Of a stretch of DNA of 64,000 nucleotides, positions 8,653 to 62,624 are shown piece by piece. The stretch comes from Gemmatimonadales bacterium (GTDB taxonomy: Bacteria; Gemmatimonadota; Gemmatimonadetes; Gemmatimonadales; GWC2-71-9). Position 1 is the stretch's first letter, and every line of letters begins with the position of its first letter. The notes beneath the pieces are model-generated. The model made no database searches and was not told the DNA's origin. It was given only the letters and a program-made list of their open reading frames with translations. The stretch spans positions 88,412-152,411 of the forward strand of contig JBBCJC010000005.1 of the NCBI GenBank assembly GCA_037189525.1, written 5' to 3'. Position numbers and translations under genes: made by a program.

Positions 8653-8758
8653 ATCCCCATGCTCCACTGCGGCCCCGTATCATCGGCGCCAGTGAATAGC
8701 GAACTGCCCACCCGAAACGAGGGGCAGCCAGATCTGTCAGCTGTGGTTTACCTGCGAA

Positions 8759-15772: not shown

Positions 15773-15844
15773 CGACAGGTCGTTGTTGCAGAACGCATGA
15801 GACACATCGGGTGCAGTCACGGTCATCATCCTAGGAGAACCATC

Positions 15845-18800: not shown

Positions 18801-18874
18801 TTTCGCTCGGAACCGACTTCTATACTTATCCGCTCGCCCGAAGCATCCGGTTCGGCGTGCAGGCAGGGTGGTGA
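15845..18874 (+). CDS. SusC/RagA family TonB-linked outer membrane protein
   Basis: ORF 15797..18874 trimmed to ATG 15845, which has AGGAG 8 nt upstream. Signal peptide, CarboxypepD_reg domain (IRGTVSD...GANVVIVGT...TGTDGNYVIRGAPAG), the SusC signature LDEVVSLGYGTASRASVTAAVTSI, and a barrel ending FGVQAGW. Immediately followed by SusD. Confidence 0.92.
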   Translation: MEYWRCRFLTPIGLALACAVTGAAGLDAQSIRGTVSDSTDQRPLEGANVVIVGTMLRSVTGTDGNYVIRGAPAGQTVTVRAQRIGYAPVTREVSVPANGEVVANFVLAVRPMQLDEVVSLGYGTASRASVTAAVTSIGGEQVLGEPVAGIDAALLGKAAGVQVIQNAGTPGNGITIRIRGSASLSASNQPLYVIDGVPITSESIGQLDFGGQEITGVAGLAIADIERIDILKDAAAAAIYGSRGSNGVVLITTKRGSGSPSITLNASIGTQKVTRRVDLLNATEYLIYMNEGAERDGYGPDYYGVVGVDDVVSTDWQDAIFRTAPIRDIVLAAAGGTDFLRYRVSGSYFDQVGTTLGSGYRKLSSRMNLDFNKGQRLTFAGGLSVTGEDNARIISDDAVLGTIPNGLASPPTVPVRLADGSYSTIDDGLIYPNAVAIGEYNTANARSNRILGSFETRAQLLSTLTLSGRVGVDFLRLHETRFASQKVAGSDAERGNGIATDAFSANNKYVFDAMLAYQGQTGKHSLGMTGGASAELNRSSWNYVRGEGMGDERFNQVQNAAIITGWDGAYEENNMLAGFGRVNYSWADRYLLSASFRYDGSSRFGPSTKWGFFPAISLAWIVSEESFLKDWRALDQLKLRGSYGLTGNQASQYYPWQGVVCTSNYGPVSGLAPCSLSNEDLKWERTAQLNLGADFTFWTGRMTFSADWYRKQTNDLLVDRPVTTTSGQNSIFSNVGNVLNTGVEFQLTAQPFYSRTGLNWTTTLNLSHNKNKVTALYNNEPFSDGWSDANRVEVGLPIGAFHLFQFEGVDPQTGDALYRTADGGVTTDPTNEDRVIVGSPWPTWTGGITNALAWKQFDLSFLFQFSVGAKIYNAMRLYANDGGYYADNKFRFAWNRWQQPGDITDEPRASADGLSGARLPSSRFIEDADYLRLLDLTFGFQLPSGMARSLGMSNARVYLSGHNLITITPYSGYFPDANSTGASSNVSLGTDFYTYPLARSIRFGVQAGW

Positions 18875-18877
18875 GCC

Positions 18878-20573: not shown

Positions 20574-20660
20574 CGGACAGGGAGGGATTCGAACCCTCGA
20601 TACCGTTGCCGGTATACCGGTTTTCGAGACCGGCTCCTTCAGCCACTCGGACACCTGTCC
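20574..20660 (-). tRNA. tRNA-Ser (anticodon CGA)
   Basis: Minus-strand sequence GGACAGGTGTCCGAGTGGCTGAAGGAGCCGGTCTCGAAAACCGGTATACCGGCAACGGTATCGAGGGTTCGAATCCCTCCCTGTCCG. It folds as acceptor GGACAGG/CCTGTCC, anticodon stem CCGGT/ACCGG with loop CTCGAAA, a long variable arm, and T-loop TTCGAAT. No encoded CCA. Confidence 0.9.
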
Positions 20661-22275: not shown

Positions 22276-22287
22276 GTCATCCACCCT

Positions 22288-25200
22288 TTACAGGCCGAGC
22301 GTGAGACGGAAGGTGAAGTAGGTCGGCGGCGCAAAGGACTGGAATTCCGACGGGTTGTTCCCCGTGGTTGCCAGGGCCTCGGGGTCGACCCCCGTGTACT
22401 CCGTCCACAGAATGCCGAGGTTCCGCGCGGCGAGCGACACCATGAGACTGCGGGCGCCGATGGCCGACGCCAACCGGTCTGATCCGCGGTACGACAGCGA
22501 CACCTCACGCAACCGGATGAAGTCAGCCTTCTCCATGAAACCACCGCCGCCGATGGCCGTGCCGTGCTGTCGGACGGCCACCACGCGGGCCTGCTCGAAC
22601 AACGGCGCCGTCGGGTCGATCAGCCCGCGGCAGTTGTTGCGGCTCTGGCACCGGATCCGCTCGGTGTTGTTGTAGTTGAGGTGCCCGCCCTTATAGTCGA
22701 ACTGGCCCGTCAACCGGACCTTCCGGTTGAAGAAATCGAACCCGTTGGTCACCACGAACTCGCGGGTCGGCTGCGACGGACCGAGGTATTCGGGTTCGGT
22801 GCCGACGAAGACCTCGTTCAGGTCCGGGTTGGCGCTGTAGCTGAGGATGCCGTTCCCGTCCTTGTCCTCCCAGCCCAGCAACCGGTGATTCCACCAGCCG
22901 AAGAGCGGATAACCTTCGACGTTGCGGGAGGTGGCGCCGGCGCCCGGCGGCACGCCGCCCAGGCTGACCAGTTCGTTCTGGTTGAGCGAGCCGCTCACGG
23001 CCAGATCCCATCCGAAGGCCCGGGCATCCAGGATCTGCCCCTGCACCATCAACTCCCAGCCCCAGTTGCGCACCTCGCCCAGGTTTTCGAACCGGGACGT
23101 GGCGCCCGTGCCGAGCGACGGCGGCAGCACCCGGCTGATGAGGGCGTCCTTGGACCGCTTGTTGTACCAGGTGACTTCGGCAATGACCCGGTTGCTGAAG
23201 AAGGTGCCGTCGAGCCCGACCTCGACCTCCGAGGAGCGTTCCGGCTTGAGGTCGCGATTGCCGAGCGCACTGTAGACCAGACCCGGCTCTTCACCGGATT
23301 CGCCCACGTTGGTGGTCGGCGAGTAGAACTGCACGGCCGCCGTGGTGCTCGGCTGCACACCCGACGCGCCGTATGCCGCGCGGAGCCGGAGCTGGTTCAC
23401 CGCGCTGCCCCGCGGGAAGAAGCCCTCCTCCGACACGACCCACGATGCCGACAGCTTCGGATAGAACACGGTCTTGAAGTCGGCGCCGAAGGCGCTGTTC
23501 CGATCCGAGCGCACCGCGCCGGTCAGGAAGAAGCGGTCGCCGAACGCAAGGTGCTGCTCGACGTAGGCGCCGATGGTCCGGGTTTCACTGTTCGACTCGT
23601 CGGAGGACAGGATCGCCGCCGACGTCACCGTGGTGGCTCCGGGAGGAAGCTCCGACCCCGAGGCGCCGTTCCGGTCGAAGGTATTGCGGTTGTACTGCAC
23701 ACCGACCGTCGTCTTGGACTCGATGGACGAGGTCACCAGCCGGGTGGCCGAGACCGCCGCATCGAGGGTGTGGGCGAACATGTTGGTGCGGTTGTCCCGC
23801 TTGAAACCGAGCGCGTCGGTTCCGGACACGGGGCACTCCGAGAAGCGGCAGAGCTGCGTTTCCTTGCGGCCGACGTAGTCGATGCCGTAGGTCGCGCGGC
23901 CGCTCAGCCACGACCGGGGCCGCCATTGGAACGTGGCAGAACCGACGAAGCGGTTGACGTCCTGATCGGTGGTGGTGCGATAGATCTCGCGCGGCGTGAC
24001 GGTGCGATACCCGTACAGCGTATCGCCCGCCGCATTGAGCATGTACTTGTAGCCGTGACCGCCGTAGGTATTGGTGGCCAACCCCGGCACGCCGGAGTCA
24101 TCGCTCCGGGTCAGGCGCACCTCCTGCTGCGTATAGCCGAGGCTCACCGCAATGTCGGCAGACGAACTCAGCGCCACGTCGAGGTTGGATCGGACGGAAT
24201 ACCGCTTGAGCGCGTTCGGGTTCTCCTGCTCGGGACGAAGCGCAATGCCGCGGGCCGAGAGCCAGCGCTTGTCGAACTCGGGGATCTTCGTCACCCCATC
24301 CTCGGTCTCGAACTCGCCGTGCACGAAATAGCGGACCGCATCCGAGCCGCCGCGAATCTGGAGGCCGTGCTGCTGGCGGTATCCGGTTCCGTACGGGGTG
24401 GCATCGGGATCTTCGTGGAGATTGTAGACGGTGACGCTGTCCTGCGTGCAAGCCCTCGAGACCACCTGCGTGAGAATACACTGGGTGAAGTTGGTCAGTC
24501 GGGAGGCGGCCGTCCAACCCCAGTAGGCATCCGGATACTTGTTGCGATCGGTGAGCGCCGTCTGCTCGGTGTAGTAGGTCCACTGCGAGCGGCCCGCGAC
24601 ACCACGCTTCGTCCGGATCACGATCACGCCGTTGGCGGCGTCCGTTCCGTACAGCGTGGCGGCCGACGGACCGCGGACCACTTCGATCGACTCGATCTCT
24701 TCCGGGTTGATGTCGTTCATGCGCGACACGGTCGTGCCGCCGACACCGATCGACGACGAGCCCGTCGTTCCTTCGACCCGGACGCCGTCGATCACAAAGA
24801 TCGGGTTATTGCTGAGCGACATCGAGCTGTTGCCGCGGATCCGGATCCGGCCGCCGCCGCCCGTCTGGATCGGCGGCGTCACGTACACGCCGGCGGCCCG
24901 GGAGGTCAGCATGTCGGTCATGTTGGAGATCGATTGCGTCTCCAGAACCTCGGCCGCTTTGACCGTGGCAATCGAGTTACCGACCTCGATGCGGCGCTGC
25001 TCACCGGTGGCGGTCACGACGAGGGGCGTCAACTCCATTGCCCGCGCCTGCATCTGCGCATCGACCGTGACCCGCTGTCCCGCCACGACCGTGACTTCGC
25101 GCGAGATCTCGGCGTACCCGATGCTCAGGATGCGCAACGTGAACGTTCCCGCGGTCACACTGGCGATGGTATAGGCCCCGCTGCTGTTGGTGACGGCACT

Positions 25201-25371
25201 GACGTTGGTACCGACCACGCTGACCTGCGCCGCCGCGATGGGCCGCTGCGTCAGCGCGTCGACGACAGTACCCGATATCGAGCCTGTCGCCTGCGCATGC
25301 ACCGGCCCCGCGAGCAAGGCAGCAGCGAGCAGCCCCAATACCGGCGCACATGGGTTCTTTCGACTCACCAT
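22288..25371 (-). CDS. TonB-dependent receptor, SusC/RagA-like
   Basis: ORF 22288..25830 trimmed to ATG 25371 (MVSRKNPCAPVLGLLAAALLAGPVHAQ, a signal peptide). CarboxypepD_reg domain (ISGTVVDALTQRPIAAAQVSVVGT...SGAYTIASVTAGTFTL), plug (IEVVRGPSAATLYGTDAANGVIVIRTKRG), ~1027 aa, followed by a SusD-like gene. Confidence 0.9.
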   Translation of the reverse strand: MVSRKNPCAPVLGLLAAALLAGPVHAQATGSISGTVVDALTQRPIAAAQVSVVGTNVSAVTNSSGAYTIASVTAGTFTLRILSIGYAEISREVTVVAGQRVTVDAQMQARAMELTPLVVTATGEQRRIEVGNSIATVKAAEVLETQSISNMTDMLTSRAAGVYVTPPIQTGGGGRIRIRGNSSMSLSNNPIFVIDGVRVEGTTGSSSIGVGGTTVSRMNDINPEEIESIEVVRGPSAATLYGTDAANGVIVIRTKRGVAGRSQWTYYTEQTALTDRNKYPDAYWGWTAASRLTNFTQCILTQVVSRACTQDSVTVYNLHEDPDATPYGTGYRQQHGLQIRGGSDAVRYFVHGEFETEDGVTKIPEFDKRWLSARGIALRPEQENPNALKRYSVRSNLDVALSSSADIAVSLGYTQQEVRLTRSDDSGVPGLATNTYGGHGYKYMLNAAGDTLYGYRTVTPREIYRTTTDQDVNRFVGSATFQWRPRSWLSGRATYGIDYVGRKETQLCRFSECPVSGTDALGFKRDNRTNMFAHTLDAAVSATRLVTSSIESKTTVGVQYNRNTFDRNGASGSELPPGATTVTSAAILSSDESNSETRTIGAYVEQHLAFGDRFFLTGAVRSDRNSAFGADFKTVFYPKLSASWVVSEEGFFPRGSAVNQLRLRAAYGASGVQPSTTAAVQFYSPTTNVGESGEEPGLVYSALGNRDLKPERSSEVEVGLDGTFFSNRVIAEVTWYNKRSKDALISRVLPPSLGTGATSRFENLGEVRNWGWELMVQGQILDARAFGWDLAVSGSLNQNELVSLGGVPPGAGATSRNVEGYPLFGWWNHRLLGWEDKDGNGILSYSANPDLNEVFVGTEPEYLGPSQPTREFVVTNGFDFFNRKVRLTGQFDYKGGHLNYNNTERIRCQSRNNCRGLIDPTAPLFEQARVVAVRQHGTAIGGGGFMEKADFIRLREVSLSYRGSDRLASAIGARSLMVSLAARNLGILWTEYTGVDPEALATTGNNPSEFQSFAPPTYFTFRLTLGL

Positions 25372-25540
25372 GAAGTACCTCGACAATTGTGGTAGGGAAG
25401 GCCCCGTTCGGAACCTGGCGGCACCCGACGGTGTCTGGCGCGCAGAGACGCCTATGGCAAGGTGAGGCATGAGGCGTGAGCCGTCAAGGTGCGCGGGCCA
25501 GCTTCTTGTCTGGCCCGCCCCGCCCGCTGTTGCGAGGCCG

Positions 25541-26884
25541 CTACGTTGCGACCGGCAGGCGCCGCTTGACCTCGAGATTGAGGAGCCAGAGAGCAAAGAT
25601 GGCGTGCACGGTCGTGGCCACCACAGAGACCCGCCAGGTCCAGTGCAGCTGGAAGCCCGGCAGCCGCGAAACCCAGATCGCCGGCCCGACGAAGACCACC
25701 AGACGGACCGTGCTGCTGATGATCGACGGCAAGGTGTTCCCCATGGCCTGGAACAGCCCGGAACAGGTAAAAACCAGCCCGGATGCCACGAAATTCCACG
25801 AAATCGTGCGCAAAAAATCAGTAGCGACAATGACTACCGCTTCGTCACCCGCAAATGGACGTACCAGCCATTCCGGACGCCAGTGCGCAAAAAGTGTCAT
25901 CGTCACCATCACCGCCGACCCGATCCGGGCCGCCGCCCAGAACGTCTCACGCACCCGCTGGTAATTCCGCGCCGCCACATTCTGCCCGGCCACCGGCGCC
26001 GCGGCAAACGCCACCGCCATGGCGGGGAGGAAAATCGCCTGCATCACGCGGGAGCCGACGCCGTAGCCCGCCTGCGCGGCCGATCCGAAATCCCGAATAA
26101 TCCAGTAGACTACCGCCATCGACAGAAACATCAGGGCAAACTCGCCCCCGGCGGGCACCCCGATCCGGAACAACCGTTTCCAGGTGGCCAGGTCGGGACG
26201 AATCAAGGCGGAGTCATAGCCGACGAAACGGTCGAACCGGCGGAAGTAGGCGTACAGAACGAAGACGCCGATTGCTACGGAAATGGTGCTGGCCAGCGCC
26301 GCCCCGGCCACGCCCAGCGGCCGCCCGGTGCCCCACCCCGCAATCAGGATCGGCGCCAGCAGCGCATTGAGGAGCACCGTGAACATCTGCAGCACCATGG
26401 TCGGCTTGGTGATGCCGTGCCCTCGCAGCGCCGACCCCATCGAGACCAGCGCAAACTGCAGAGCTAGCGCCGGCAGGAACCAGTAGAGATAGGTCACTCC
26501 GGCTGTGATGGTTGCCGCATCGGCGGCCACGAACTCGAGATACGGACGCGCCAGGAACGCCCCCGCACCCAGCACCAGCATACCGGCGCCGGCGGCGAGG
26601 ACCAGACTCTGATTGAAGACCAGATTGGCGTCGTGACGGTCTTTGCGTCCGGCCGCGTGCGCAATCAAAACCATGGTGCCGATCCCGAGCACCTGGGTCA
26701 GCGCCATCACGATGAACTGGACGTTCCCCGCGGCGCTGACGCCGGCAATTGCCGCTTCCCCCAGCCGCGCAACGAAGTAGAGGTCGACCATCAGATAGAG
26801 CGTTTGAAATACCATTCCGATGGCGAGCGGAATCGCCAGGCGGACGATATGCTTGGGGATAGAACCGACGGTAAGATCGTGCAC
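25541..26884 (-). CDS. MATE family efflux transporter
   Basis: 447 aa with a GTG start. N-terminus IPKHIVRLAIPLAIGMVFQTLYLMVDLYFVARLG is typical of NorM/DinF-type MATE proteins. 12-TM-like hydrophobic profile. Confidence 0.92.
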   Translation of the reverse strand: MHDLTVGSIPKHIVRLAIPLAIGMVFQTLYLMVDLYFVARLGEAAIAGVSAAGNVQFIVMALTQVLGIGTMVLIAHAAGRKDRHDANLVFNQSLVLAAGAGMLVLGAGAFLARPYLEFVAADAATITAGVTYLYWFLPALALQFALVSMGSALRGHGITKPTMVLQMFTVLLNALLAPILIAGWGTGRPLGVAGAALASTISVAIGVFVLYAYFRRFDRFVGYDSALIRPDLATWKRLFRIGVPAGGEFALMFLSMAVVYWIIRDFGSAAQAGYGVGSRVMQAIFLPAMAVAFAAAPVAGQNVAARNYQRVRETFWAAARIGSAVMVTMTLFAHWRPEWLVRPFAGDEAVVIVATDFLRTISWNFVASGLVFTCSGLFQAMGNTLPSIISSTVRLVVFVGPAIWVSRLPGFQLHWTWRVSVVATTVHAIFALWLLNLEVKRRLPVAT

Positions 26885-27559: not shown

Positions 27560-27592
27560 TTACACTCCCAGATGAGCATCGTTCTCACATGG

Positions 27593-27614
27593 GAATAATT
27601 CTCATTTATTATCA
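27593..27614 (+). promoter_or_regulatory. Fur-box-like operator in an AT-rich promoter region
   Basis: gaataattctcatttattatca contains a perfect ATTATCA half-site and a GAATAAT half-site. The match to GATAATGATAATCATTATC is approximate and needs one indel. It sits 17 nt upstream of the siderophore-receptor ATG, in the most AT-rich intergenic stretch of the window. Confidence 0.4.
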
Positions 27615-27630
27615 TCGAGGCATCTCACTC

Positions 27631-30057
27631 ATGAAGAAGCCGAAGAAGAAGCGGTCAGCCGATCACCCAGGCGACCGTCTGACCGACCCTGCCCCCGTTC
27701 CGGCGGACCAACCCGCCACCCGATTGGCCCTCCCCGGCAAACTGGCCCTGGCTGGCAGCCTGCTAACCGGCGCGTTCTTCGGATGGCTGACCCCCGACAT
27801 CGCGGAAGCCCAGGTTCCCACCGATCCCGAATCGACTCGCCAGACCGTCCGACAGTTCGACATTGCCCCCGGCACCCTTCGGACCGTCCTGGAACAGTTC
27901 CAGGCTCAGACCCGGATTCGCACCATTCCCCCGGCCGGGATCTCACTCGATGCTCCATCACCCGGCCTGACCGGTGCCTTTACACCGGAAGCCGCGTTGC
28001 GACAGATCCTCACGGGGACCTATCTGACCTTCCGGTTCGAAGGGCCCACGCTCGTTCGCCTCGTGCGCGCGGCGCCCGATGCGGATACCCCGGTCCGCCT
28101 GGCCGAGGTAACCGTCGCCGCGGCTCCGGTGCCCGCGCCAAGTTCGCCGAAACTCAACGGACCGCTGCGGGACACGCCCCAGACGATCACCATCGTCTCG
28201 TCGAAGCTGATCGAGCAGCAGGGCGCGGTGACCCTGCGCCAGGTCCTCCGCAACGTACCCGGCGTGACCATCAACGCCGGTGAAGGAGGCGCCACTCCCG
28301 GCGACAATTTCAACGTGCGTGGCTTCAGCGCCCGCGGCGACATGTTCGTCGACGGCGTCCGGGATCTCGCCGGATTCAGTCGCGAGTCGTTCAACATCGA
28401 ACAGGTCGAGGTGGTCAAAGGACCGGCGTCGACCTACAGCGGACGGGGCTCGACCGGCGGCTCGATCAACACCGTGAGCAAAACGCCCAAGGCCAGCACC
28501 CTGCGGCAGATCCAGGCCGGGATCGGCAGCGCAGACTATCAACGGGTCACCGCCGACCTCAATCAGCCGCTGGGCAACGGCGCCGCCGTCCGGGTCAACG
28601 CGCTCTATCACGATGCGGATATACCGGCCGTGGATGTCGTCACCAGCCGCAACTGGGGCATCGCGCCGTCCGTCGCCATCGGCCTGGGTTCCCGAACCCC
28701 GGTGAGCGTCAGCTACGCACATCTCGATATCAAGGGGATTCCCGGCTACGGGATTCAGACCTTCGACAGCGTGCCGCAGCAGTTCGATACCCACAAGTTC
28801 GTCGGCCTGCTCGCCCGGGATCACGAGTACGTGAAGACCGACCAGGCCACTGCCCGAATCGAGCACCACATCTCACCGAGCCTCCGGGTCAGCAACCAGT
28901 TGGGCTATTCCAAAGCCAGCGTCGACCGGGTCATCACCTTTGCCGGATTCAACGGCGCGCGTTCGTCACGCTCGCACGTCACGTCCGATGAAGCCCTGGC
29001 CAACCAGACCAACCTGACCGCCGAGTTCGGCACCAGACAGGTGGGACACCGGCTCTCGGTGGGAGTCGATTATACCCGGGAGGAAGGCACCTTTACCAAC
29101 TGGGCGCTCTCGGCCCCGCCGGCCATCACCAACCTTGCCAATCCCAACCCGAACGATCCGGTCACCGGAACGCCGACGCTCAATCCGGCGCGGCGAACCG
29201 TGGGCAAGACCCTCGCCGTCTATGCCTTCGAAACACTGCGGCTGGGCGACAAGATCGAACTGAGCGGTGGACTCCGCTGGGACGACTTCAGCCCCGAATT
29301 CTACCCGGCGTCGAACGCCACCACGATCCCCGACCCGCCGGCCCAGGCATCGGTGCTCAACTGGCGCGCAGGAGCCGTCTTCAAACCGCGGCCGAACGGC
29401 AGCATTTACGCGGCCTATTCGACCTCGTTCAATCCGTCGCTCCAGACGATCCAGTACGAGGGCACCAGCACGCTCGATCCGGAGCGCAACCGCAGTCTCG
29501 AAGTTGGTACCAAATGGGACGTCGCGGACGGCCGGCTGGCCCTGTCCGCCGCGATCTTCCGCACCGACAAAACCAACGCGCGCACCTCGGATCCAAACGA
29601 TCCGGCGCTTGGTACGGTACTCGAAGGAGAACAACGGGTTCAGGGTTTCGAGCTGGGCGCCACCGGGTATCTGACCCCGGCCTGGAGCCTGTTCTTCGGC
29701 TACAGCTATATGGATAGCGAGATCCTCAAATCCCGTAACGCGTCCCAAGTGGGCTCCGGGATGCCGAACGTACCGAAGCACAGCCTCTCGGCCTGGACCA
29801 GCTACGCCGTCGACCAGCGTCTCGATGTCGCGCTGGGCGCCCGCTTCGTCGACGATCGTCTCCTGTCGCTCGGGCGCACCACCATGGTGCCGAAGTACTG
29901 GGCATTCGATGCGACGGGCAGCTACCGCATCCTCAAGGAGCTCGCGCTCAAGATCGAAGTGCACAACCTGACGGACGAACTGTACTACGAAAGCGGGCGA
30001 TTCTGGACACCCGCGCCTGGTCGGTCGGTCCGCATGTCGACCCTGATTTCCTTCTGA
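27631..30057 (+). CDS. TonB-dependent siderophore receptor with N-terminal STN signalling domain (FecA/FpvA-type transducer)
   Basis: ORF 27589..30057 trimmed to ATG 27631 (MKKPKKKR...). STN pattern [23 protein letters not shown]...[24 protein letters not shown], plug ([26 protein letters not shown]), and a barrel ending MSTLISF. Confidence 0.92.
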
Positions 30058-56549: not shown

Positions 56550-56777
56550 GGATCCTGGTCAGACGGCGTAAACAGATACAACCAATAAACTTAGCCGACT
56601 TCCAGCCTCAACGCCAATCCCTCTGCCAAGCCCCTGCTGCCGCCCTAAATGCTCGAACGGTACGGCGCAGTACCGGTAGGCCTCTGGCGCCCACGCCGCC
56701 TGCGCACTAACGTGCGATCCACAGGGCCGGCCCGACTCTCCCGCTTGTTTATACCTTACATCCCGGATGTGCTTCGC

Positions 56778-58673
56778 ATGGACGAATTGCAGGCGCGAAT
56801 CCTCGTCAAGCGCCTGGAGCAAGAGGCTGCCGCGCGGCCCTTGGCATATCGACTGCGAGTCGCCTGCCTCGCACTACTTGGGTACGGATACTTCGCAATG
56901 CTGGCGGCTTTTTCAATTGCCATCCTCTATGCGAGCTACATAGAAGGGGAGATCATCCGCGGCACGATTCCAGCGCTCTTAATTCTTGTCTTGTTGCTCT
57001 CCGCCTTCTGGATCAGGCTGGCACCTCCACTTGGCGTTCCGCTTCGCCGGAGTGAGGCTCCGGATCTCTGGGCGGCAATCGACCAAATACGAGTTCAACT
57101 TCGGGCGCCCAAAATTCATGAAATTCGTATCAGTGACAAGCACAACGCCGCCATCGCGCAGATTCCCCGGCTAGGGATCTTTGGGTGGTACAAAAACTAT
57201 CTTGTCCTTGGCTTCCCATTGCTTCAGAGCCTCAGCCGAGATCAGGCGTTAGCCGTCATCGGGCATGAGCTCGGGCACCTGTCCAGGAATCACGGCCGCT
57301 TTGCTGGATGGATTTACCGCCTCCGCATCGCTTGGAGCCGTCTGCACGCAATGTTCGTACGTCTGCACGCAATGTTCGTAAACGAACCCCACAGCCGCTG
57401 GTACGTTCTGTTCGTTCCGTTCATCAATCGGTATGCCCCGTACTTCGAAGCCTATAGCTTCGTCCTGGCTCGAGCCGATGAATACATCGCGGATCAATGC
57501 GCTGCTCAGGTAACAGATCAGGAGGCCGTACGGAGTGGATTGGTCCGGTTGGCATCGGTATCTCGATTCGCTCACGAGACGTTCTTGAGCTCGATGACCC
57601 CGCACCTGAAGAACGAACCTGAGCCACCGGGTGACATTCCGACCAGACTGGCCACCTACCTCCAGGAGCACGCAACGCAAGAGCGTCTCGCCCGTTACAG
57701 GGTCAATGCGGCCGCAGAACGGACCGGTTGGTCCGATACGCACCCGAGTCTGACAGACCGCCTCCGGGGACTCGGGTGGAAGGAGGTGCCGGAGCCTTCA
57801 TGGTGCGCGCCGCCACAGCCTGGAGCAGATGCGGCTACCGTACTGCTGAGTCATACGACAATCGGACAGGTATTGGCTCGCCTGGGCGACCACTGGCGGT
57901 CCACCTATCGTGATTTCTGGAACACAACCCACCATCGGATTCTGATGATTCAGGAGGACTTAAGCGCGCTCGAGGCGCGCGCAGCAACCGAGACGCTACC
58001 GCGCGCGGAGGCATGGAGTCGAATTCGTCTGACGCATCAACTCGACCCCAATCGGGCGTATCCCATGCTGCTGCCGTTCATTGCGGCCCATCCGGACCAC
58101 GCCGAGGCCCGTCTCTATTTCGGCCGCCACCTGGCAGATTTGGGAGACGATGCGGGAATAGACCACCTTCGCAAGGCAAGTCAACTCGACGAGGACCTTC
58201 TGGTTCCTGCGTACCGTCTCATCGCCGTCGCTCTATCGTCCAAGGGCCGGCGTCAGGAAGCACTCTCGTTCGAGCGGACGGCAGAGGACCGTGCAACGAT
58301 CCTCGAAGCCGCCGATCTCGAGCGCCGTACCATGTCCCGAAAGATGGTTCTCGAGCCGGTCACTCTCCCCGCCGAGACCATTGCAGCTCTGCGGACGGCG
58401 GTAGCGCGATACCCAGATGCAATTCGAGTATATCTGGCCCGGCGGCGGGCTGAGACTTTGCCTGAGCGGCCCTGTTATCTGCTTGGCGTACTACCGCGCC
58501 GGAAGCACCACCAGCAAGTGATCGACGAAGCCGACCTCCTCACACGACTGACCAACGACATCGAATGGCCGAAGTACGTCCAGGGCGTGATCCTTGAGGA
58601 CGACAACCGATGGCTACTTCATCGGATGCGTACTGGAGCCATCTTGCTCGACTCTCGACCCAATGATCAGTGA
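56778..58673 (+). CDS. M48 family zinc metallopeptidase with a long C-terminal helical-repeat region
   Basis: ORF 56649..58673 trimmed to ATG 56778 (MDELQARILV...). Two N-terminal TM helices. VIGHELGHLSRNH (HExxH), a downstream ADEYIAD glutamate, and DTHPSLTDR. The C-terminal ~350 aa are helical and TPR-like. G+C is visibly lower than in flanking genes. Confidence 0.85.
   Translation: MDELQARILVKRLEQEAAARPLAYRLRVACLALLGYGYFAMLAAFSIAILYASYIEGEIIRGTIPALLILVLLLSAFWIRLAPPLGVPLRRSEAPDLWAAIDQIRVQLRAPKIHEIRISDKHNAAIAQIPRLGIFGWYKNYLVLGFPLLQSLSRDQALAVIGHELGHLSRNHGRFAGWIYRLRIAWSRLHAMFVRLHAMFVNEPHSRWYVLFVPFINRYAPYFEAYSFVLARADEYIADQCAAQVTDQEAVRSGLVRLASVSRFAHETFLSSMTPHLKNEPEPPGDIPTRLATYLQEHATQERLARYRVNAAAERTGWSDTHPSLTDRLRGLGWKEVPEPSWCAPPQPGADAATVLLSHTTIGQVLARLGDHWRSTYRDFWNTTHHRILMIQEDLSALEARAATETLPRAEAWSRIRLTHQLDPNRAYPMLLPFIAAHPDHAEARLYFGRHLADLGDDAGIDHLRKASQLDEDLLVPAYRLIAVALSSKGRRQEALSFERTAEDRATILEAADLERRTMSRKMVLEPVTLPAETIAALRTAVARYPDAIRVYLARRRAETLPERPCYLLGVLPRRKHHQQVIDEADLLTRLTNDIEWPKYVQGVILEDDNRWLLHRMRTGAILLDSRPNDQ
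57339..57380 (+). repeat. Perfect 21-bp tandem duplication inside the M48 gene
   Basis: cgtctgcacgcaatgttcgta occurs at 57339-57359 and again at 57360-57380. It is in frame and duplicates RLHAMFV. Confidence 0.95.
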
Positions 58674-58712
58674 GGTACCGCGCGTCGTCCGAGGATTGCC
58701 ATATTGGTACAC

Positions 58713-58919
58713 ATGAAGACGACACGAAACATCGACGACCGGCTACTGGCCGAGGCTCGCAGACTCACCCAGATCGAGGAAAAAACTGAGCCGGTTCGCG
58801 CTGACCTCGAAGCGCTGATCGCTCGGGAAAGCGCTTGTCGACTCGCTCGCCTCGGCGGATCCGAGCCTGTCATGCGACCGATCCCTCGCCGGCGGTCGCG
58901 GTCGCGCCGCGCCTCGTGA
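58713..58919 (+). CDS. vapB: Type II toxin-antitoxin system VapB-family antitoxin
   Basis: ORF 58704..58919 starts at TTG; ATG 58713 gives MKTTRNIDDRLLAEARRLTQIEEKTEPVRADLEALI, the typical N-terminus of MxTT(L/R)xIDDxLLxEA antitoxins. Its stop overlaps a GTG (GTGA) that opens a PIN-type reading frame. Confidence 0.8.
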   Translation: MKTTRNIDDRLLAEARRLTQIEEKTEPVRADLEALIARESACRLARLGGSEPVMRPIPRRRSRSRRAS

Positions 58920-59110
58920 TCCTGGTCGACACATCGGTCTGGATCGACCACCGCCGCCGGGATAACGACCTGCTGGAGATGTTATGGCGCCCCACGGACG
59001 CTGATGGGAGCCTTCAACGTGGGCAGTCCCTCGAGGTCGACCCGAACCCGATACGTGCCGCGCGAAACGTTGGCGAAGAGTGCAGTGCGATACGTCACGC
59101 CTACCGATAG
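58916..59110 (+). pseudogene. vapC: Truncated vapC (PIN-domain toxin) remnant
   Basis: From GTG 58916 the frame reads VILVDTSVWIDHRRRDNDLLEML, a canonical PIN N-terminus with the first catalytic Asp. All resemblance ends near 58985 and the frame stops at 59110 after 64 codons. That is too short for a PIN domain, and the remaining acidic residues are absent. Confidence 0.6.
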
Positions 59111-59412
59111 CAATCGTGTCGACCCACGATTCCAAGCAGAGGGTGGTACTCACCCGGGGAAACGCTCCCGAGCCGAGATCGTGTTCGACAGCAACGTTTA
59201 TCTCACGTGGATACTGTGTACACGACGGGTTCGTCACCGCGGTTGCTCAGATCGACACGCGCGATAAACTTCCCACCCCGTTCCACGATGGCGGGCTCGA
59301 TCGTCAGTGTGGCCTGGAGCGGTCCGGACTCGGCGGATAGGCCCCCGCGGTAAATAGGACGCTCGCCAGGAGCGCAGCAACCCATGGCGATGATCGATGA
59401 GTCGAAGTCACC
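58982..59412 (-). pseudogene. Decayed fourth copy of the Cys-pair lipoprotein family
   Basis: Homology to the 59416-59868 product is split over three minus-strand frames. The first frame reads ..SSIIAMGCCAPGE...IEPAIVERGGKFIARVDLSNRGDEPVV. After a shift near 59221-59226 it reads CTQYPREINVAV...GSGAFPRVSTTLC...TLRQ. After a shift near 59066-59070 it reads VSRGTYRVRVDLEGLPTLKAPISVRGAP*, with the stop at 58984-58982. The signal peptide is truncated: only 10 codons follow the upstream stop. Confidence 0.6.
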
Positions 59413-59415
59413 GGG

Positions 59416-59868
59416 CTACTCCACCTGCAGCTTTCCGGACAGTTCGGGCAACTCCATATGGAAATTGAAGTCGACCCGAAGATCGAACGTTCCGGACCTG
59501 CTGCTCGCCATGAGCGGCTGACGGAGGGTGATCTGTTCCGCGGGTGGAATCGTCTCGGTCAGTCCCTCGGGTACGCAGACGTCGAACCGCTGGATCGGTG
59601 AGGCCCCCGGCTGCCCATCCGGCCCGTTACTGACCGAAACGGTCAGCGGATAGCAACCGCGCGTCTGTAGTGAGATCGGCTGATCGGTCCGGTTGATCAG
59701 GTCGACCCGCACGTCGAACTGCTGGTTCACGGCTGCGGTCCCTGGCTCGAGGGAGAGGACGGCCCGCAAACCGTCACGTTCGAATTCGGGTCGCATGGAG
59801 TCGCAAGCGGAGGTGACCCCACCAGCCATCAGCGCGACAACGGTCCTTACTGCTACTCGATATGACAT
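59416..59868 (-). CDS. Cys-pair lipoprotein family member 1 (hypothetical)
   Basis: 150 aa. ATG with GGGAGAGG upstream. Lipobox GVTSAC. Shared family blocks LRAVLSLEPG, FDVRVDLINRTDQPISL, two Cys, and SGTFDLRVDFNF...LPELSGKLQVE. Confidence 0.75.
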   Translation of the reverse strand: MSYRVAVRTVVALMAGGVTSACDSMRPEFERDGLRAVLSLEPGTAAVNQQFDVRVDLINRTDQPISLQTRGCYPLTVSVSNGPDGQPGASPIQRFDVCVPEGLTETIPPAEQITLRQPLMASSRSGTFDLRVDFNFHMELPELSGKLQVE

Positions 59869-60082
59869 TTAGGTACCTCTCCCGCGGCAGATCCAGGTAG
59901 AAACTGACTTACACTCCCCCCCATGCCTGCCGCGATGAATCGAAAGTATCCCGCGCAGCTTCGTGGGGCAAACACCCTCACACTACCATGACCCGCGCAC
60001 AACCGAAAACGTCACTTCCGACGGTGTATTCGGCCCAGGTTCAATACTCGGGTATGACGAAGCGGCTTAAGTCAGCCATGGT

Positions 60083-60541
60083 TTACTCTACCCGCAGCTT
60101 CGCGCCCAGGCTCGGCAACGCTTCGGTGAAATTGAAGTCGACGCGAAGGTTGAAAGTCCCGCTGGTTACGTTTGCAACCAGCGGCATCTTGGGAGAGACG
60201 CGGCCACCCGGCGGAATGGTATACACACCACCAATCCCAGTGCAAAAGACCGTCGGGGGTACGAACGCCCCAGCGAGTTGCTTCGACCCCTTCGTCACCG
60301 TGACCTCGAACGCGCGGCACGATCCCGTCCTCAGTTCGATCGACCGGTTACCACGATTGATCAGGTCGACCTGGACCTCGAACGAGCCATTGGTCGGGAC
60401 GACGTCGGGCGCCACCACCACGACGGCGCGCAAATCCCCGAACTCGAACGACGAGGGACCAACGGCGTTACAACCTCCCAGAAGCAGTCCGATCGTCATA
60501 GCCAGGGACGAATATCCCAGGGAAATGATCCCGCGGATCAT
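60083..60541 (-). CDS. Cys-pair lipoprotein family member 2 (hypothetical)
   Basis: ORF 60083..60592 trimmed to ATG 60541 (ATGA overlap with the upstream paralog stop). MIRGIISLGYSSLAMTIGLLLGGC lipobox. LRAVVVVAPD, FEVQVDLINRGNRSIEL, two Cys, and SGTFNLRVDFNF...LPSLGAKLRVE. Confidence 0.75.
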   Translation of the reverse strand: MIRGIISLGYSSLAMTIGLLLGGCNAVGPSSFEFGDLRAVVVVAPDVVPTNGSFEVQVDLINRGNRSIELRTGSCRAFEVTVTKGSKQLAGAFVPPTVFCTGIGGVYTIPPGGRVSPKMPLVANVTSGTFNLRVDFNFTEALPSLGAKLRVE

Positions 60542-60987
60542 CGAATCACCATCTTCGTGGTCACCTCTCGCACGAACGGCTGGAGGATCCATCTCACCGT
60601 CACCTCATACTCACCCGGGGGCGCGTTGGCCGTCAAATGCGACGGGAATTCGCGCGAGCCCTGGGCAGGAACCGGAAAGGACGTGATCGCCGCCGTACAT
60701 ACATTGGTGGTCCCAGGGGTCATCGGCGTGTAGTCGACCCCCTTGCGAACGACCCGCACGCCGTACGCACATCCACTTCCACTCGAATAATTGGCCAGAT
60801 TGTCCGATCGGTTCTGGATCAAAGCCCGAACCGTGAGCTGCTGGCCACGTTCGACGACCGCAGGATCGAGCGACACGCTGACGGCGCGATCGCCTTCATC
60901 GTAAGATTCCGGCGCGACCGTGCCGCACCCGGCAATCAGGCCGATGGCTGCGATTCCTCTCAGTATGAAACCGGCGGATTGGCGCAT
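60538..60987 (-). CDS. Cys-pair lipoprotein family member 3 (divergent, hypothetical)
   Basis: ORF 60538..61014 starts at TTG; ATG 60987 is preceded by a perfect AAGGAGG 6 nt upstream. MRQSAGFILRGIAAIGLIAGC lipobox. RAVSVSLDPAVVERGQQLTVRALIQNRSDN and two Cys are present; the C-terminus diverges from the other copies. Confidence 0.75.
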   Translation of the reverse strand: MRQSAGFILRGIAAIGLIAGCGTVAPESYDEGDRAVSVSLDPAVVERGQQLTVRALIQNRSDNLANYSSGSGCAYGVRVVRKGVDYTPMTPGTTNVCTAAITSFPVPAQGSREFPSHLTANAPPGEYEVTVRWILQPFVREVTTKMVIR

Positions 60988-61037: not shown

Positions 61038-61065
61038 GCTACCTGCGCTATGTTACCTGCGCTAT
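61038..61065. repeat. 14-bp tandem direct repeat (two copies, 13/14 identical)
   Basis: gctacctgcgctat (61038-61051) and gttacctgcgctat (61052-61065). The second copy contains the amidohydrolase stop codon (61062-61064). The repeat lies 51-78 nt upstream of the lipoprotein ATG at 60987. Confidence 0.9.
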
Positions 61066-62522
61066 TGTCGCGCGGCGGCCTCCGCCGTTTGCAACAACCG
61101 ATCCAGCATCGAACGTTCGAGCAGTTGCCCCCGCACCACGACCGTCTCGATCGTCCGGGTATTGCCGATATCCGCCAGCGGGTCGAGCCGCAGCAGTACC
61201 AGGTCGGCAATCTTCCCCTCCGCCACGGTGCCGCTCTCCGGCCGGCCCGCTGCCTCCGCAGCATTACGCGTGGCGGCCTGAATGGCCTGGAGCGGCGTCA
61301 GTCCGATGTCGACCAGCACCTGCAGTTCCCGATGCAGGCTGAATCCGGGTACCAATGGCGGCACTGGTACATCGGTGCCTGCGACGAACTTGGCTCCCGC
61401 CCGCGCCAGCGGCGTAAACGACGAGATGAGCACCTTCCAGCGCGCCTGCTCCGCCTCGACTACGGCCCTGGCCGCGAGCGCCGTCGCCGGGAGACGACCA
61501 CCCGAGGCATAGCGGAGTTCCGGCAGCGCGCGCAGCACCGGGTCGTTTGGTCTATACCTGTTTTCCATGACCACGAACGTCGGGTCGAACCAGACATCCT
61601 TGCGCGCCGCGTACTCCGCAAACTCCCGGGCGGCCACCGTGTCAGTGACCGCAATGGCTGAATCGATGGCTGCGATCTTGAGAGCAAAGACACGCTCCAC
61701 CAGCTCCCGCCCTGACTCGGCGGTTGCCCGGACCTCGGCGGCCGCCGCCTGGAAGGCCGAGCGGATCGCGGCGGCCTGCGCGCCATTCTCGAAGGCCAGG
61801 CCGAACGAATGCTCGATGGTCCGCTGCCCCGAATCGATGGCCTCCCTCGCCGTGACCTCGTCGGGAATGTGGCCGGCGACGGCCAAGCCATGCTTGCGCG
61901 CCTGGCGCAGCACCGCAAAGTATGGCTCTCGCGGGAGCAGCGAATGGACCTTGATGACGTCGACCCCGGCCGCCGCGAGCGAATCGACCACTCGCTCCGC
62001 ATCTCCCGCAGTAGTGAGCCCCACTCGGCCGTTAGGCGCCATCTCGAGGACCTTCGGATCGTCGAGGATCGGCCCCGCCATCATGATGGTCGGGCCAAGC
62101 ACTCGGCCGGCCCGCACCTCCTGGCGCCAATAACCGATCTGCTGCAGGTCGGTGCCGACATCGCGAACAGTGGTAACACCGTTGGCCAGGTAGAGCGGAA
62201 AGCCCAACTCCCGATAGCCGCCCTGATGGGTATGCATATCCCAGAGCCCGGGAATGACATACATCCCCCGCCCGTCGATGCGCAGCGTCACGGAGTCGGA
62301 GGCAAACGCCCCCATCGGTCGGATGGCCACGATGCGATCGCCATCGATGGCAATCGACATCCCCGGCACCGCGCCACGATCGGTGCCGTCGATCAGGACG
62401 ACGTCCTCGATCAGCATCGAGATGCGGAGCGGTGTATCCTGGCACCCGACAAGACCAATCAGCATGGCGAGACCCAGCAGACTGGACCATAGCGAGCGGC
62501 GGTAACGACGCATCTGTCTCAT
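61062..62522 (-). CDS. Amidohydrolase family lipoprotein (metal-dependent hydrolase, COG1228-like)
   Basis: ORF 61062..62555 starts at GTG; ATG 62522 gives MRQMRRYRRSLWSSLLGLAMLIGLVGC (lipobox). ATG 62513 is an alternative. VIPGLWDMHTH (HxH metal site), VIKVHS and AGHIPD motifs are present. Confidence 0.88.
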   Translation of the reverse strand: MRQMRRYRRSLWSSLLGLAMLIGLVGCQDTPLRISMLIEDVVLIDGTDRGAVPGMSIAIDGDRIVAIRPMGAFASDSVTLRIDGRGMYVIPGLWDMHTHQGGYRELGFPLYLANGVTTVRDVGTDLQQIGYWRQEVRAGRVLGPTIMMAGPILDDPKVLEMAPNGRVGLTTAGDAERVVDSLAAAGVDVIKVHSLLPREPYFAVLRQARKHGLAVAGHIPDEVTAREAIDSGQRTIEHSFGLAFENGAQAAAIRSAFQAAAAEVRATAESGRELVERVFALKIAAIDSAIAVTDTVAAREFAEYAARKDVWFDPTFVVMENRYRPNDPVLRALPELRYASGGRLPATALAARAVVEAEQARWKVLISSFTPLARAGAKFVAGTDVPVPPLVPGFSLHRELQVLVDIGLTPLQAIQAATRNAAEAAGRPESGTVAEGKIADLVLLRLDPLADIGNTRTIETVVVRGQLLERSMLDRLLQTAEAAARQ

Positions 62523-62624
62523 ACCATTCGGTTCAAATGAAGTGAAACGCCGCACCAGCAGCAGCTGGCGCGGCGGTATTCGCTGGCAGCATCGCCAGCA
62601 AGTTAACTCACCACAGAGGCGGCC

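What the first reader, a model, noticed from the sequence alone, without database searches (positions are those of the whole stretch)
58982..60987. Tandem family of four homologous Cys-pair lipoprotein genes (three intact, one decayed) of unknown function, next to peptidase genes
Seen in the sequence:
- Four co-oriented minus-strand genes are clearly homologous to each other: 60987-60538, 60541-60083 (ATGA-coupled to the first), 59868-59416, and a frameshifted, 5'-truncated copy at 59412-58982.
- The intact products are ~150 aa with lipoboxes (LIAGC, LLGGC, VTSAC).
- They share the blocks (L/D)RAV..(L/V).P, a strand pair (F/L)x(V)(R/Q)(V/A)(D/L)(L)INR..., two conserved Cys 26-28 residues apart, and in two copies a near-identical C-terminus SGTF(D/N)LRVDFNF...LP.L..KL.VE.
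- I recognise no named family.

Inference:
- The alternating-hydrophobic pattern suggests an all-beta sandwich.
- The x-V-x-L-x-N-x-(S/T)-x-x-x-(I/V)-x-L strand pair followed by a small-residue turn is reminiscent of BsuPI-type proteinase-inhibitor domains.
- The array is flanked by an M48 metallopeptidase (56778-58673) and a secreted amidohydrolase (61062-62522), so a periplasmic or outer-membrane protease-inhibitor or immunity role is a testable guess.
- Recent duplication and decay within one locus points to rapid turnover, as seen for surface or conflict-related genes.
Basis: partly seen in the sequence, partly recalled or inferred. Interest (0 to 1): 0.7.

Follow-up and report, generated by a model that had tools for sequence, protein, structure and literature searches.

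The report
BsuPI-like lipoprotein gene array
Four neighbouring genes (one dead) in a Gemmatimonas-like genome encode small membrane-anchored beta-sandwich proteins distantly related to a Bacillus protease inhibitor, but their function is untested and the protease gene next door is a recent, unrelated insertion.

Summary
Three intact minus-strand genes (A 60987-60538, B 60541-60083, C 59868-59416) and one pseudogene (D 59411-58982) are true paralogues, with pairwise BLASTP E from 8e-5 to 6e-31. Each has a lipobox and two conserved Cys 24-26 residues apart.

D is not 5'-truncated. It is full length but broken by 13-, 2- and 2-bp deletions relative to an intact orthologue.

The BsuPI guess is supported at superfamily level:
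- A family profile hits only B. subtilis IPI (PDB 3ISY) in the PDB (E 4.6e-5; hhalign 93%).
- AlphaFold models (pLDDT 89-90) place 3ISY in the top four fold matches.
- The window proteins nevertheless fail Pfam's BsuPI threshold.

The family is small (67 hits among 1.84 billion representatives) and, where labelled, Gemmatimonadota-only.

The M48 link is not supported. That gene is a 2.1-kb, low-GC3 insertion absent from syntenic relatives, lies on the opposite strand, and its catalytic domain is predicted to be cytoplasmic. No neighbour is conserved across nine independent contexts.

The array sits in a copy-number hot spot (one to six copies) between a lipoprotein amidohydrolase gene and vapBC. 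The duplications are old and the losses recent.

Protease inhibition is the best single mechanistic guess (about 0.3). Interest is modest.

The parts
60538..60987 (-). Copy A: 149-aa lipoprotein (lipobox LIAGC, Cys21; domain Cys73/Cys97). It is the copy kept next to the amidohydrolase gene in every syntenic relative.
   Evidence: ORF with AAGGAGG 7 nt upstream of the ATG. Orthologues are 59%, 53%, 45% and 42% identical in L002, L013 and L017. dN/dS is 0.16-0.19. AF2 pLDDT is 90.1.
60083..60541 (-). Copy B: 152-aa lipoprotein (LLGGC, Cys24; Cys75/Cys100), ATGA-coupled to A.
   Evidence: Its orthologue P0004 in L002 is 59% identical. dN/dS is 0.18. AF2 pLDDT is 89.1. Pfam BsuPI scores 13.7 bits, below threshold. 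A 349-bp deletion removes most of it in strain L003.
59869..60082 (-). 214-nt B-C spacer (GC 0.565); the likely site of a separate promoter for C, though none was detected.
   Evidence: The consensus scan found no sigma-70-like site and only chance-level terminator-like hairpins.
59416..59868 (-). Copy C: 150-aa lipoprotein (VTSAC, Cys22; Cys72/Cys98).
   Evidence: It is 43% identical to B (E 6e-31). dN/dS is 0.25. B and C keep 72% DNA similarity over 78 nt at their 3' ends.
58982..59411 (-). Copy D: a full-length pseudogene with 13-, 2- and 2-bp deletions. The lipobox Cys codon and the first domain Cys codon are both destroyed.
   Evidence: Three-frame translation and DNA alignment to the intact orthologue in L003. 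HMM fragments score E 1.9e-12 and 1.1e-4. Against the intact copy there are 13 nonsynonymous and 5 synonymous codon changes.
61062..62555 (-). Upstream co-oriented amidohydrolase (COG1228-like) with its own lipobox (LIGLVGC). It forms the proximal boundary of the array and is conserved only in syntenic relatives.
   Evidence: Pfam Amidohydro_1 E 6.7e-20. The best NCBIfam hit is a Xaa-Pro dipeptidase model, far below its cutoff. N-terminus shown. Synteny.
58704..58919 (+). vapB antitoxin gene; part of the distal boundary of the array.
   Evidence: Pfam VapB_antitoxin E 2.9e-10. Syntenic in L002, L013 and L017.
58916..58985 (+). vapC (PIN) remnant. Only about 23-25 codons remain, and it is cut exactly where pseudogene D ends on the other strand.
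   Evidence: The translation VILVDTSVWIDHRRRDNDLLEM compares with the full 119-aa VapC in L002. Similarity to L002 stops at 58976.
56596..58694 (+). Lineage-specific 2.1-kb insertion carrying the M48 peptidase gene (56778-58673). It is not part of the lipoprotein system.
   Evidence: It is absent from L002 and L013, where about 70 nt occupy the site. GC3 is 0.65. Pfam Peptidase_M48 E 2.5e-15. It has two N-terminal TM segments and HELGH at residue 163.

Best explanation
The locus is a birth-and-death tandem array of genes for small single-domain lipoproteins.

**Anatomy.** Each product has a Sec/SPase-II signal ending in a lipobox Cys, a short linker (C-x3-G-P-S) and a beta-sandwich of about 120 residues. 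The sandwich belongs to the BsuPI/CARDB branch of Ig-like (E-set) domains. Two invariant Cys are predicted to form a disulfide. This disulfide would tie the long loop between strands 5 and 7 to the turn between strands 3 and 4. That loop is the counterpart of the conserved 'wedge' of B. subtilis IPI.

**Proposed mechanism.** Once lipid-anchored on a periplasm-facing or surface leaflet, the domain most likely acts as a tight protein binder through the stapled wedge. By homology with IPI, the best single guess is reversible steric blocking of subtilisin-type (or other) endopeptidases in the cell envelope. The diverged paralogues would cover different targets. The adjacent M48 peptidase is not the target.

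**Shown:** paralogy, lipoboxes, fold, remote homology to IPI, purifying selection on A-C, pseudogenisation of D, copy-number variation at a syntenic hot spot, and the non-conservation of M48.

**Inferred:** the disulfide, the localisation, binding through the wedge, and protease inhibition with its target class.
For: **Homology to IPI**
- The family profile hits 3ISY alone in the PDB: E 1e-3 with 3 sequences, improving to 4.6e-5 with 50. The next hit is at E 0.39.
- hhalign gives 93.3% probability, E 2.6e-7.
- Pfam BsuPI is the most frequent family hit among members (14 of 50). P0057 (31.2 bits) and the two-domain relative P0060 (25.1 bits) pass its threshold.

**Fold**
- AF2 pLDDT is 89.1 and 90.1.
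- 3ISY ranks 3rd and 4th in Foldseek and is the best-covered single-domain match (TMt 0.65 and 0.63).
- The strand order maps one-to-one onto IPI's strands as listed in PMC3901451.

**Wedge loop and Cys pair**
- Cys100 of B aligns to IPI F65, inside residues 62-68, which Rigden et al. docked into the subtilisin active site.
- The loop motif F-x-G-T-x-Y-x-C is the best-conserved loop in the family.
- All 50 members keep exactly two domain Cys, and 48 of 50 keep the lipobox Cys.
- Single-domain architecture is the commonest in the IPI family, and many IPI homologues carry signal peptides.

**Real, constrained genes**
- dN/dS is 0.16-0.25, the same as the flanking amidohydrolase.

**Repertoire-like behaviour**
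- Syntenic loci carry one to six copies, and different copies are lost in different strains.
Against: - IPI's own inhibitor status is unsettled. The family was removed from MEROPS (former I22) because it may act as a competing substrate (PMC3901451).
- The homology is at superfamily level. The window proteins fail Pfam's BsuPI cutoff.
- At similar E-values the profile also hits generic CARDB, PKD and N_BRCA1_IG repeat proteins. The best fold matches include complement MG domains.
- No peptidase neighbour is conserved. Peptidase genes lie nearby in only 2 of 9 independent contexts, and they belong to different families.
- No subtilisin gene was found among about 45 window proteins scanned.
- The residues after the second Cys are not hypervariable.
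- The disulfide geometry could not be checked.
Confidence: 0.3

Rival explanations
1. They are generic Ig-like envelope lipoproteins with a structural, adhesive or ligand-binding role and no protease inhibition. On this reading the resemblance to IPI reflects only a shared CARDB/BsuPI-type fold.
For: - The profile also hits CARDB, PKD and N_BRCA1_IG repeat proteins at E 1e-4 to 1e-12.
- P0057 passes both the BsuPI and the CARDB thresholds.
- The top fold matches are MG domains, the Fn3-like domains of GH3 enzymes and the biofilm protein RbmA.
- The IPI paper itself suggests that IPI may be a general protein-interaction module.
- No gene neighbour is conserved.
Against: - By sequence, the only significant hit among solved structures is IPI, not CARDB or MG domains.
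- The small single-domain architecture, a disulfide-stapled conserved loop and multi-copy arrays with differential loss are more typical of inhibitor or immunity repertoires than of structural proteins.
Confidence: 0.25
2. One reading: they are periplasmic or outer-membrane inhibitors or immunity proteins for the adjacent M48 metallopeptidase.
For: Physical proximity in this window only: M48 ends at 58673 and the array starts at 58982.
Against: - The M48 block is a 2.1-kb insertion absent from syntenic L002 and L013, and L003 has a different gene (map) beyond the array.
- Its GC3 of 0.65 marks it as recently acquired.
- It is on the opposite strand and separated from the array by vapB and a vapC remnant.
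- It has two N-terminal TM helices with positive charges at the N-terminus and after TM2. This places HELGH and the C-terminal domain in the cytoplasm, out of reach of an exported lipoprotein (inferred from the positive-inside rule).
- IPI was reported inactive against metallopeptidases.
Confidence: 0.03
3. They are accessory subunits or regulators of the upstream lipoprotein amidohydrolase (a putative periplasmic dipeptidase). Copy A would be the cognate partner.
For: - The amidohydrolase is co-oriented, lies 74 nt upstream of A and has its own lipobox.
- The order amidohydrolase then an A-type copy is kept in L001, L002, L003 and L013.
Against: - All of those loci belong to one closely related lineage (argS 85-86% nucleotide identity), so the adjacency is simply inherited.
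- Distant family members lack this neighbour. The one amidohydrolase near P0077 is 26% identical, 3.4 kb away and on the other strand.
- The copy number varies while the amidohydrolase gene stays single.
Confidence: 0.08
4. They are immunity-type proteins against foreign envelope-targeting effectors, such as interbacterial toxins or lysozymes. The array would be an orphan immunity repertoire.
For: - Tandem, diverged, differentially lost copies sit in a variable region beside toxin-antitoxin remnants, with relaxed codon usage (GC3 0.71-0.75).
- The proteins are periplasm-facing lipoproteins with a disulfide.
- One distant member lies next to an AmiA-like amidase gene.
Against: - No toxin or effector gene or fragment lies next to any copy.
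- PADLOC gives no hit.
- No structural match to a known immunity protein or lysozyme inhibitor appears among the top 50 fold hits.
Confidence: 0.1

Closest known systems
B. subtilis intracellular proteinase inhibitor IPI / Pfam BsuPI (PF12690; PDB 3ISY; former MEROPS I22)
   Same: - Single Ig-like beta-sandwich of about 110-125 residues with the same strand order.
- A conserved Asn in the strand-2 motif (x-V-x-L-x-N-x-S/T).
- A long conserved loop before strand 7 (the 'wedge').
- A G-x-Y-x-V-x-V strand near the C-terminus.
- Sequence-profile homology (E 4.6e-5; hhalign 93%).
- Many IPI homologues also carry signal peptides, and the upstream extension of IPI quoted in PMC3901451 ends in LLIGC, which looks like a lipobox (my reading).
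   Different: - The window proteins fail the Pfam gathering score (13.7 bits against 22.9 for B; no BsuPI hit for A or C).
- They carry an invariant Cys pair that IPI lacks.
- They are lipoproteins of a diderm phylum.
- They occur in tandem arrays.
- Identity to IPI is only 13-17%.
- Inhibitory activity has been reported only for IPI and is itself disputed.
CARDB (PF07705), DUF11 and NEW3-type bacterial Ig-like surface domains
   Same: They share the same E-set fold class and the V-x-N-x-G/S strand motif. The family member P0057 passes the CARDB threshold, and CARDB-repeat proteins appear among the weaker profile hits.
   Different: CARDB domains usually occur as repeats in large surface proteins. 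Here the domain stands alone behind a lipid anchor, has a conserved Cys pair, and is closer by sequence to IPI than to any CARDB structure.
Macroglobulin (MG) domains of complement C3/C4/CVF and alpha-2-macroglobulins
   Same: They give the best Foldseek E-values (1.9e-6 to 1e-5). Eight of 50 members have weak Pfam A2M hits.
   Different: MG domains are structural modules of proteins over 1,400 residues long, and they cover only a small part of the target (TMt 0.09-0.42). There is no thioester, bait region or multidomain context here, and the A2M hits are below threshold.
Chagasin/ICP (MEROPS I42) Ig-like cysteine-protease inhibitors
   Same: They are small single-domain Ig-like inhibitors that block the active site with loops. 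This is an analogue of how the proteins here might work (PMC3901451).
   Different: They have a different strand topology and no detectable homology. None appears among the top 50 fold hits.

Membership tests
Pfam BsuPI (PF12690) | Score at or above the curated gathering threshold (22.9 bits) | tested here: not met
   B scores 13.7 bits (E 0.063). A and C have no BsuPI hit. Of 20 single-domain relatives tabulated individually, only P0057 passes (31.2 bits); P0033 (20.7) and P0039 (20.1) fall short. The two-domain hit P0060 passes at 25.1 bits.
Pfam BsuPI (PF12690) | Detectable homology to the founding member IPI (3ISY) by profile methods | tested here: met
   hmmsearch of the family profile against the PDB gives 3ISY at E 1e-3 (3 sequences) and 4.6e-5 (50 sequences), with the next hit at 0.39. 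hhalign gives 93.3%, E 2.6e-7 over 92 columns.
Pfam BsuPI (PF12690) | IPI-type Ig-like sandwich with the same strand order and an extended conserved 'wedge' loop | tested here: inconclusive
   The fold and strand order agree. AF2 pLDDT is 89-90, and Foldseek gives 3ISY TMt 0.63-0.65 at ranks 3 and 4. The loop is present, confidently modelled and conserved. Its 3-D shape could not be superposed because model coordinates are not exposed.
Pfam BsuPI (PF12690) | Inhibition of subtilisin-type serine peptidases | not testable with these tools
   This needs biochemistry. Even for IPI the activity is questioned (PMC3901451).
Bacterial lipoproteins (SPase II substrates) | N-terminal positive n-region, hydrophobic h-region and a lipobox [LVI][ASTVI][GAS]C / PROSITE PS51257-like pattern | tested here: met
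   A has LIAGC (Cys21), B has LLGGC (Cys24) and C has VTSAC (Cys22). 48 of 50 family members have the aligned Cys, and the other two are N-truncated gene calls. Actual lipidation was not tested.
CARDB (PF07705) | Score at or above the gathering threshold (22.7 bits) | tested here: not met
   No window protein has a CARDB hit. Only the distant member P0057 passes, at 27.9 bits.
Alpha-2-macroglobulin family (PF00207, MG domain) | Gathering threshold met, and a multidomain thioester-protein context | tested here: not met
   The best member hit is 19.5 bits against a cutoff of 21. The proteins are single-domain and about 150 aa long.
Canonical (Laskowski) disulfide-stapled serine-protease inhibitors | An exposed reactive-site loop held by a nearby disulfide, with a variable P1 | tested here: inconclusive
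   Cys100 aligns 2 residues before IPI's proposed P1 (PMC3901451). However, the post-Cys residues are not hypervariable, and the geometry was not tested.
Operon-encoded cognate inhibitor of the neighbouring M48 peptidase | Conserved co-occurrence and the same cellular compartment as the peptidase | tested here: not met
   M48 is absent from syntenic L002, L013 and L003. Its catalytic domain is predicted to be cytoplasmic.

The most novel reading that the evidence does not exclude
These proteins could be the first diderm, lipid-anchored and disulfide-stapled class of IPI-like protease inhibitors. On this reading, Gemmatimonadota would keep a diversifying repertoire of them in a genomic hot spot to shield the cell envelope from their own or competitors' secreted serine proteases. 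The Cys-stapled wedge loop would be the reactive site. If so, the family would also settle whether the BsuPI fold (former MEROPS I22) really is an inhibitor fold.
Probability: 0.2. Interest if true: 0.55.

Novelty: new variant of a known kind. Interest (0 to 1): 0.3.

Why it matters
If the proteins do inhibit proteases, they would extend a poorly understood inhibitor fold (BsuPI/IPI) to diderm bacteria in a lipid-anchored, disulfide-stabilised form. They would also supply several natural variants for testing how that fold blocks proteases.

As it stands, the finding is mainly a clean example of birth-and-death evolution in a small family of envelope proteins. The family is lineage-restricted, is not captured by Pfam or NCBIfam, and carries no name other than 'hypothetical protein' where public sources name it.

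It is also a warning that gene adjacency can mislead. Here the adjacent M48 gene is a recent insertion.

Tried and rejected
**Searches that found nothing**
- The word-indexed homologue search with B found only near-identical sequences. With the 50-sequence profile it returned just 7 proteins.
- NCBIfam gave no hit and PADLOC gave none.
- With A4, the search for related loci found one genome locus (L002) and nothing in metagenomes.
- With the distant subgroup A7 it found two short metagenome loci with no informative neighbours.
- The consensus promoter/terminator scan of the array showed nothing above chance, and Rfam found only two tRNAs in the window.
- Literature searches found a single relevant paper.

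**Tools unavailable**

**Hypotheses rejected**
- M48 as the target (synteny, strand, codon usage and topology).
- A conserved amidohydrolase partnership. The L014 amidohydrolase is only 26% identical.
- A hypervariable reactive loop. Column entropies after the second Cys are average.
- Recent duplication. The paralogues are 20-45% identical.
- Sequencing error as the cause of D's frameshifts. One of them is a 13-bp deletion, all three fall within 430 nt, and the neighbouring genes are clean. D also shows 13 nonsynonymous against 5 synonymous changes.
Full report
**Observation**

The minus strand of 58982-60987 carries three intact ORFs and one broken one.
- A is 60987-60538 (149 aa).
- B is 60541-60083 (152 aa). 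Its ATG overlaps the TGA of A as ATGA.
- C is 59868-59416 (150 aa).
- D is 59411-58982.

With signal peptides removed, all pairs are significantly similar by BLASTP: B-C 43% identity, E 6e-31; B-D 4e-14; C-D 2e-12; A-C 3e-7; A-D 2e-6; A-B 8e-5. An HMM of the family scanned over all six frames of the 64-kb window finds these four copies and nothing else. The lipoboxes LIAGC, LLGGC and VTSAC are present. Each mature domain has exactly two Cys, 24-26 residues apart.

**The fourth copy**

D is not 5'-truncated. A 95%-identical contig (L003) carries an intact 148-aa orthologue, P0015, with signal peptide and lipobox LFAAGC. Aligned to it, the window copy has three deletions:
- 13 bp at 59344/59343, removing the lipobox Cys codon.
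- 2 bp at 59207/59206, destroying the first domain Cys codon.
- 2 bp at 59099/59098.

It also shows 13 nonsynonymous against 5 synonymous codon differences, close to neutral. The intact copies evolve under purifying selection. Their dN/dS is 0.16-0.25, the same as the flanking amidohydrolase at 0.17-0.25. L003 shows the reciprocal pattern: D is intact but a 349-bp deletion removes most of B.

**What the proteins are**

Curated libraries do not name them. For B, Pfam gives a sub-threshold BsuPI hit (13.7 bits against 22.9), and A has no Pfam hit at all. For C there is only a weak Transglut_C hit. NCBIfam and PADLOC give nothing.

An exhaustive HMMER search with the three paralogues found only 67 proteins at E <= 1e-3 among 1.84 billion cluster representatives. 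Most are lipoproteins of 140-180 aa with the same two Cys.

Evidence linking them to B. subtilis IPI (PDB 3ISY, the founder of BsuPI):
- A profile of 50 members hits one solved structure by sequence, 3ISY, at E 4.6e-5. The next hit is at 0.39. The three paralogues alone already gave E 1e-3.
- hhalign gives 93% probability.
- Fourteen of 50 members touch Pfam BsuPI. Among the members tabulated, only P0057 (31.2 bits) and the two-domain relative P0060 (25.1 bits) pass its threshold, and P0057 also passes CARDB.
- AlphaFold2 models of B and A are confident (pLDDT 89.1 and 90.1) nine-stranded sandwiches.
- Foldseek against the PDB ranks 3ISY third and fourth. It is the best-covered single-domain match (TMt 0.65 and 0.63), placed among complement MG domains.

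Membership of the curated family is not met for the window proteins. At similar E-values the profile also reaches generic CARDB, PKD and N_BRCA1_IG repeat proteins.

**Structural reading**

The only paper on this family (Rigden et al. 2013, PMC3901451) makes several relevant points:
- IPI has an unusual extended, conserved loop that forms a 'wedge'.
- Residues 62-68 of IPI dock into the subtilisin active site like the reactive loops of canonical inhibitors.
- Many homologues have signal peptides.
- A Gemmatimonas aurantiaca homologue exists.
- The family was removed from MEROPS because IPI may be a competing substrate rather than an inhibitor.

In the hhalign alignment, Cys100 of B falls on IPI F65, inside that stretch, and Cys75 falls on the turn between strands 3 and 4. 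The loop motif F-x-G-T-x-Y-x-C is the most conserved loop of the family. All 50 members keep both Cys.

I infer a disulfide that staples the wedge loop, as is usual for exported inhibitors. The geometry could not be checked because model coordinates are not exposed. The residues after the Cys are not hypervariable, so I make no claim of reactive-site hypervariability.

**Genomic context**

The window is an ordinary chromosomal region of a Gemmatimonas-like organism. Its argS region is 85-86% identical to a Gemmatimonas MAG (L002) and to a Gemmatimonadales MAG (L013). The window also carries housekeeping genes.

The syntenic frame is LLM oxidoreductase, aldo-keto reductase, lipoprotein amidohydrolase, the array, vapC-vapB, an FmdB-type zinc ribbon, then argS. 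Within that frame the array varies:

| Locus | Copies |
|---|---|
| L013 | one copy plus a C-terminal fragment |
| L002 | six copies |
| L017 | at least three |
| window | three plus a pseudogene |
| L003 | A, truncated B, C, D |

Paralogues are only 20-45% identical and fall into orthology groups shared between genomes. The duplications are therefore old, and what is recent is differential loss. The array genes have relaxed codon usage, with GC3 0.71-0.75 against 0.78-0.84 for the flanking genes.

**The peptidase neighbours**

The M48 gene lies in a 2.1-kb block (56596-58694) that is simply absent from L002 and L013. There, about 70 nt separate the zinc-ribbon gene from vapB. In L003 the array abuts a methionine aminopeptidase gene instead.

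Several other features argue against a link to the array:
- M48 has GC3 0.65.
- It is on the opposite strand, separated from the array by vapB and a vapC stub.
- It has two N-terminal TM segments flanked by positive charge at the N-terminus and after TM2. By the positive-inside rule, this puts HELGH and the C-terminal domain in the cytoplasm (inference).

It is therefore a poor candidate target.

The amidohydrolase is co-oriented, 74 nt upstream, and itself a lipoprotein. Its adjacency is kept only within this one lineage. Distant family members sit in unrelated contexts:
- an AmiA-like gene;
- uncharacterised genes, one of them a weak paralogue candidate;
- chlorite dismutase;
- glnA and a transposase;
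- SIMPL;
- Fic and toxin-antitoxin genes;
- an acetyltransferase;
- in one case, M1, S9 and a 26%-identical amidohydrolase within 5 kb.

No partner is conserved, as was also noted for IPI itself.

**Mechanism and probabilities**

The best specific model has four steps:
1. The proteins are exported and lipidated.
2. They are tethered by a short linker.
3. They present a disulfide-stapled wedge loop.
4. They bind and sterically block envelope or extracellular endopeptidases. Subtilisin-type enzymes are the likeliest targets by analogy with IPI. The diverged paralogues would cover different targets.

I put this at about 0.3. The rivals are:
- a non-inhibitory Ig-like envelope protein (0.25);
- an immunity-type protein against foreign effectors (0.1);
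- a partner of the amidohydrolase (0.08);
- an inhibitor of the M48 enzyme (0.03).

The remaining probability is unassigned.

**Novelty and verdict**

The family is small, labelled only as Gemmatimonadota where a label exists, unnamed apart from 'hypothetical protein', and outside Pfam thresholds. It is best described as a new lipid-anchored, Cys-stapled variant of the known BsuPI/CARDB Ig-like kind.

Interest is modest (0.3). It would rise if inhibition were shown, because that would also resolve the disputed status of the BsuPI fold as an inhibitor.

Noticed in passing
window 56596-58694: The M48 peptidase gene sits in a 2.1-kb insertion absent from syntenic Gemmatimonas loci. Its GC3 is low (0.65 against 0.78-0.84 in the flanking core genes). 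Its architecture is two N-terminal TM helices, an M48 domain and a long C-terminal, weakly TPR-like region.
   Followed up: yes
window 57339-57380: A perfect 21-nt tandem duplication lies inside the M48 gene. It gives an in-frame repeat, RLHAMFV-RLHAMFV, shortly after the HELGH motif.
   Followed up: no
window 58704-58985 (+): vapB is intact, but vapC is reduced to about 23-25 codons and is cut exactly at the 3' end of pseudogene D on the other strand. L002 and L013 keep a full vapC, while in L017 vapB abuts the array directly. The toxin gene therefore appears to have been lost more than once.
   Followed up: partly
L003 942-1124 (equivalent to window 60424-60076): A strain 95% identical to the window keeps D intact but has lost most of B through a 349-bp deletion. 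This is the reciprocal of the window's pattern.
   Followed up: yes
window 61062-62555 (-): The amidohydrolase upstream of the array has its own lipobox (LIGLVGC). Its best NCBIfam hit is a Caulobacter Xaa-Pro dipeptidase model, far below the cutoff, so it is probably a periplasm-facing lipoprotein hydrolase of unknown substrate.
   Followed up: partly
window 60541-60592 (-): A public gene call for B (P0001, 169 aa) starts at the upstream ATG 60592 and overlaps A by 55 nt. The ATGA-coupled start at 60541 gives a normal signal peptide and matches the orthologue P0004.
   Followed up: partly
L013 3558-3776: A C-terminal fragment of another family copy (HMM positions 87-153, E 4e-8) lies between the amidohydrolase gene and the single intact copy. 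This is further evidence of copy decay at the same hot spot.
   Followed up: partly
window 6301-8667, 15797-20212, 22288-25830, 27589-30057: The window holds four TonB-dependent receptor genes. One is paired with a SusD-like gene (18878-20212). A 461-aa protein with no Pfam hit (20899-22284) lies next to another and may be a divergent SusD-like partner.
   Followed up: no
window 10866-10953 and 20574-20660 (-): Two tRNA-Ser genes (anticodons GGA and CGA).
   Followed up: no
PMC3901451 (IPI N-terminal extension): The possible upstream extension of B. subtilis IPI quoted in the paper (MKRLLVMLLPVLLLIGCGKDE...) ends in a lipobox-like LLIGC. The authors treated it as a signal peptidase I signal. 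IPI may itself be a lipoprotein, like the family here.
   Followed up: no
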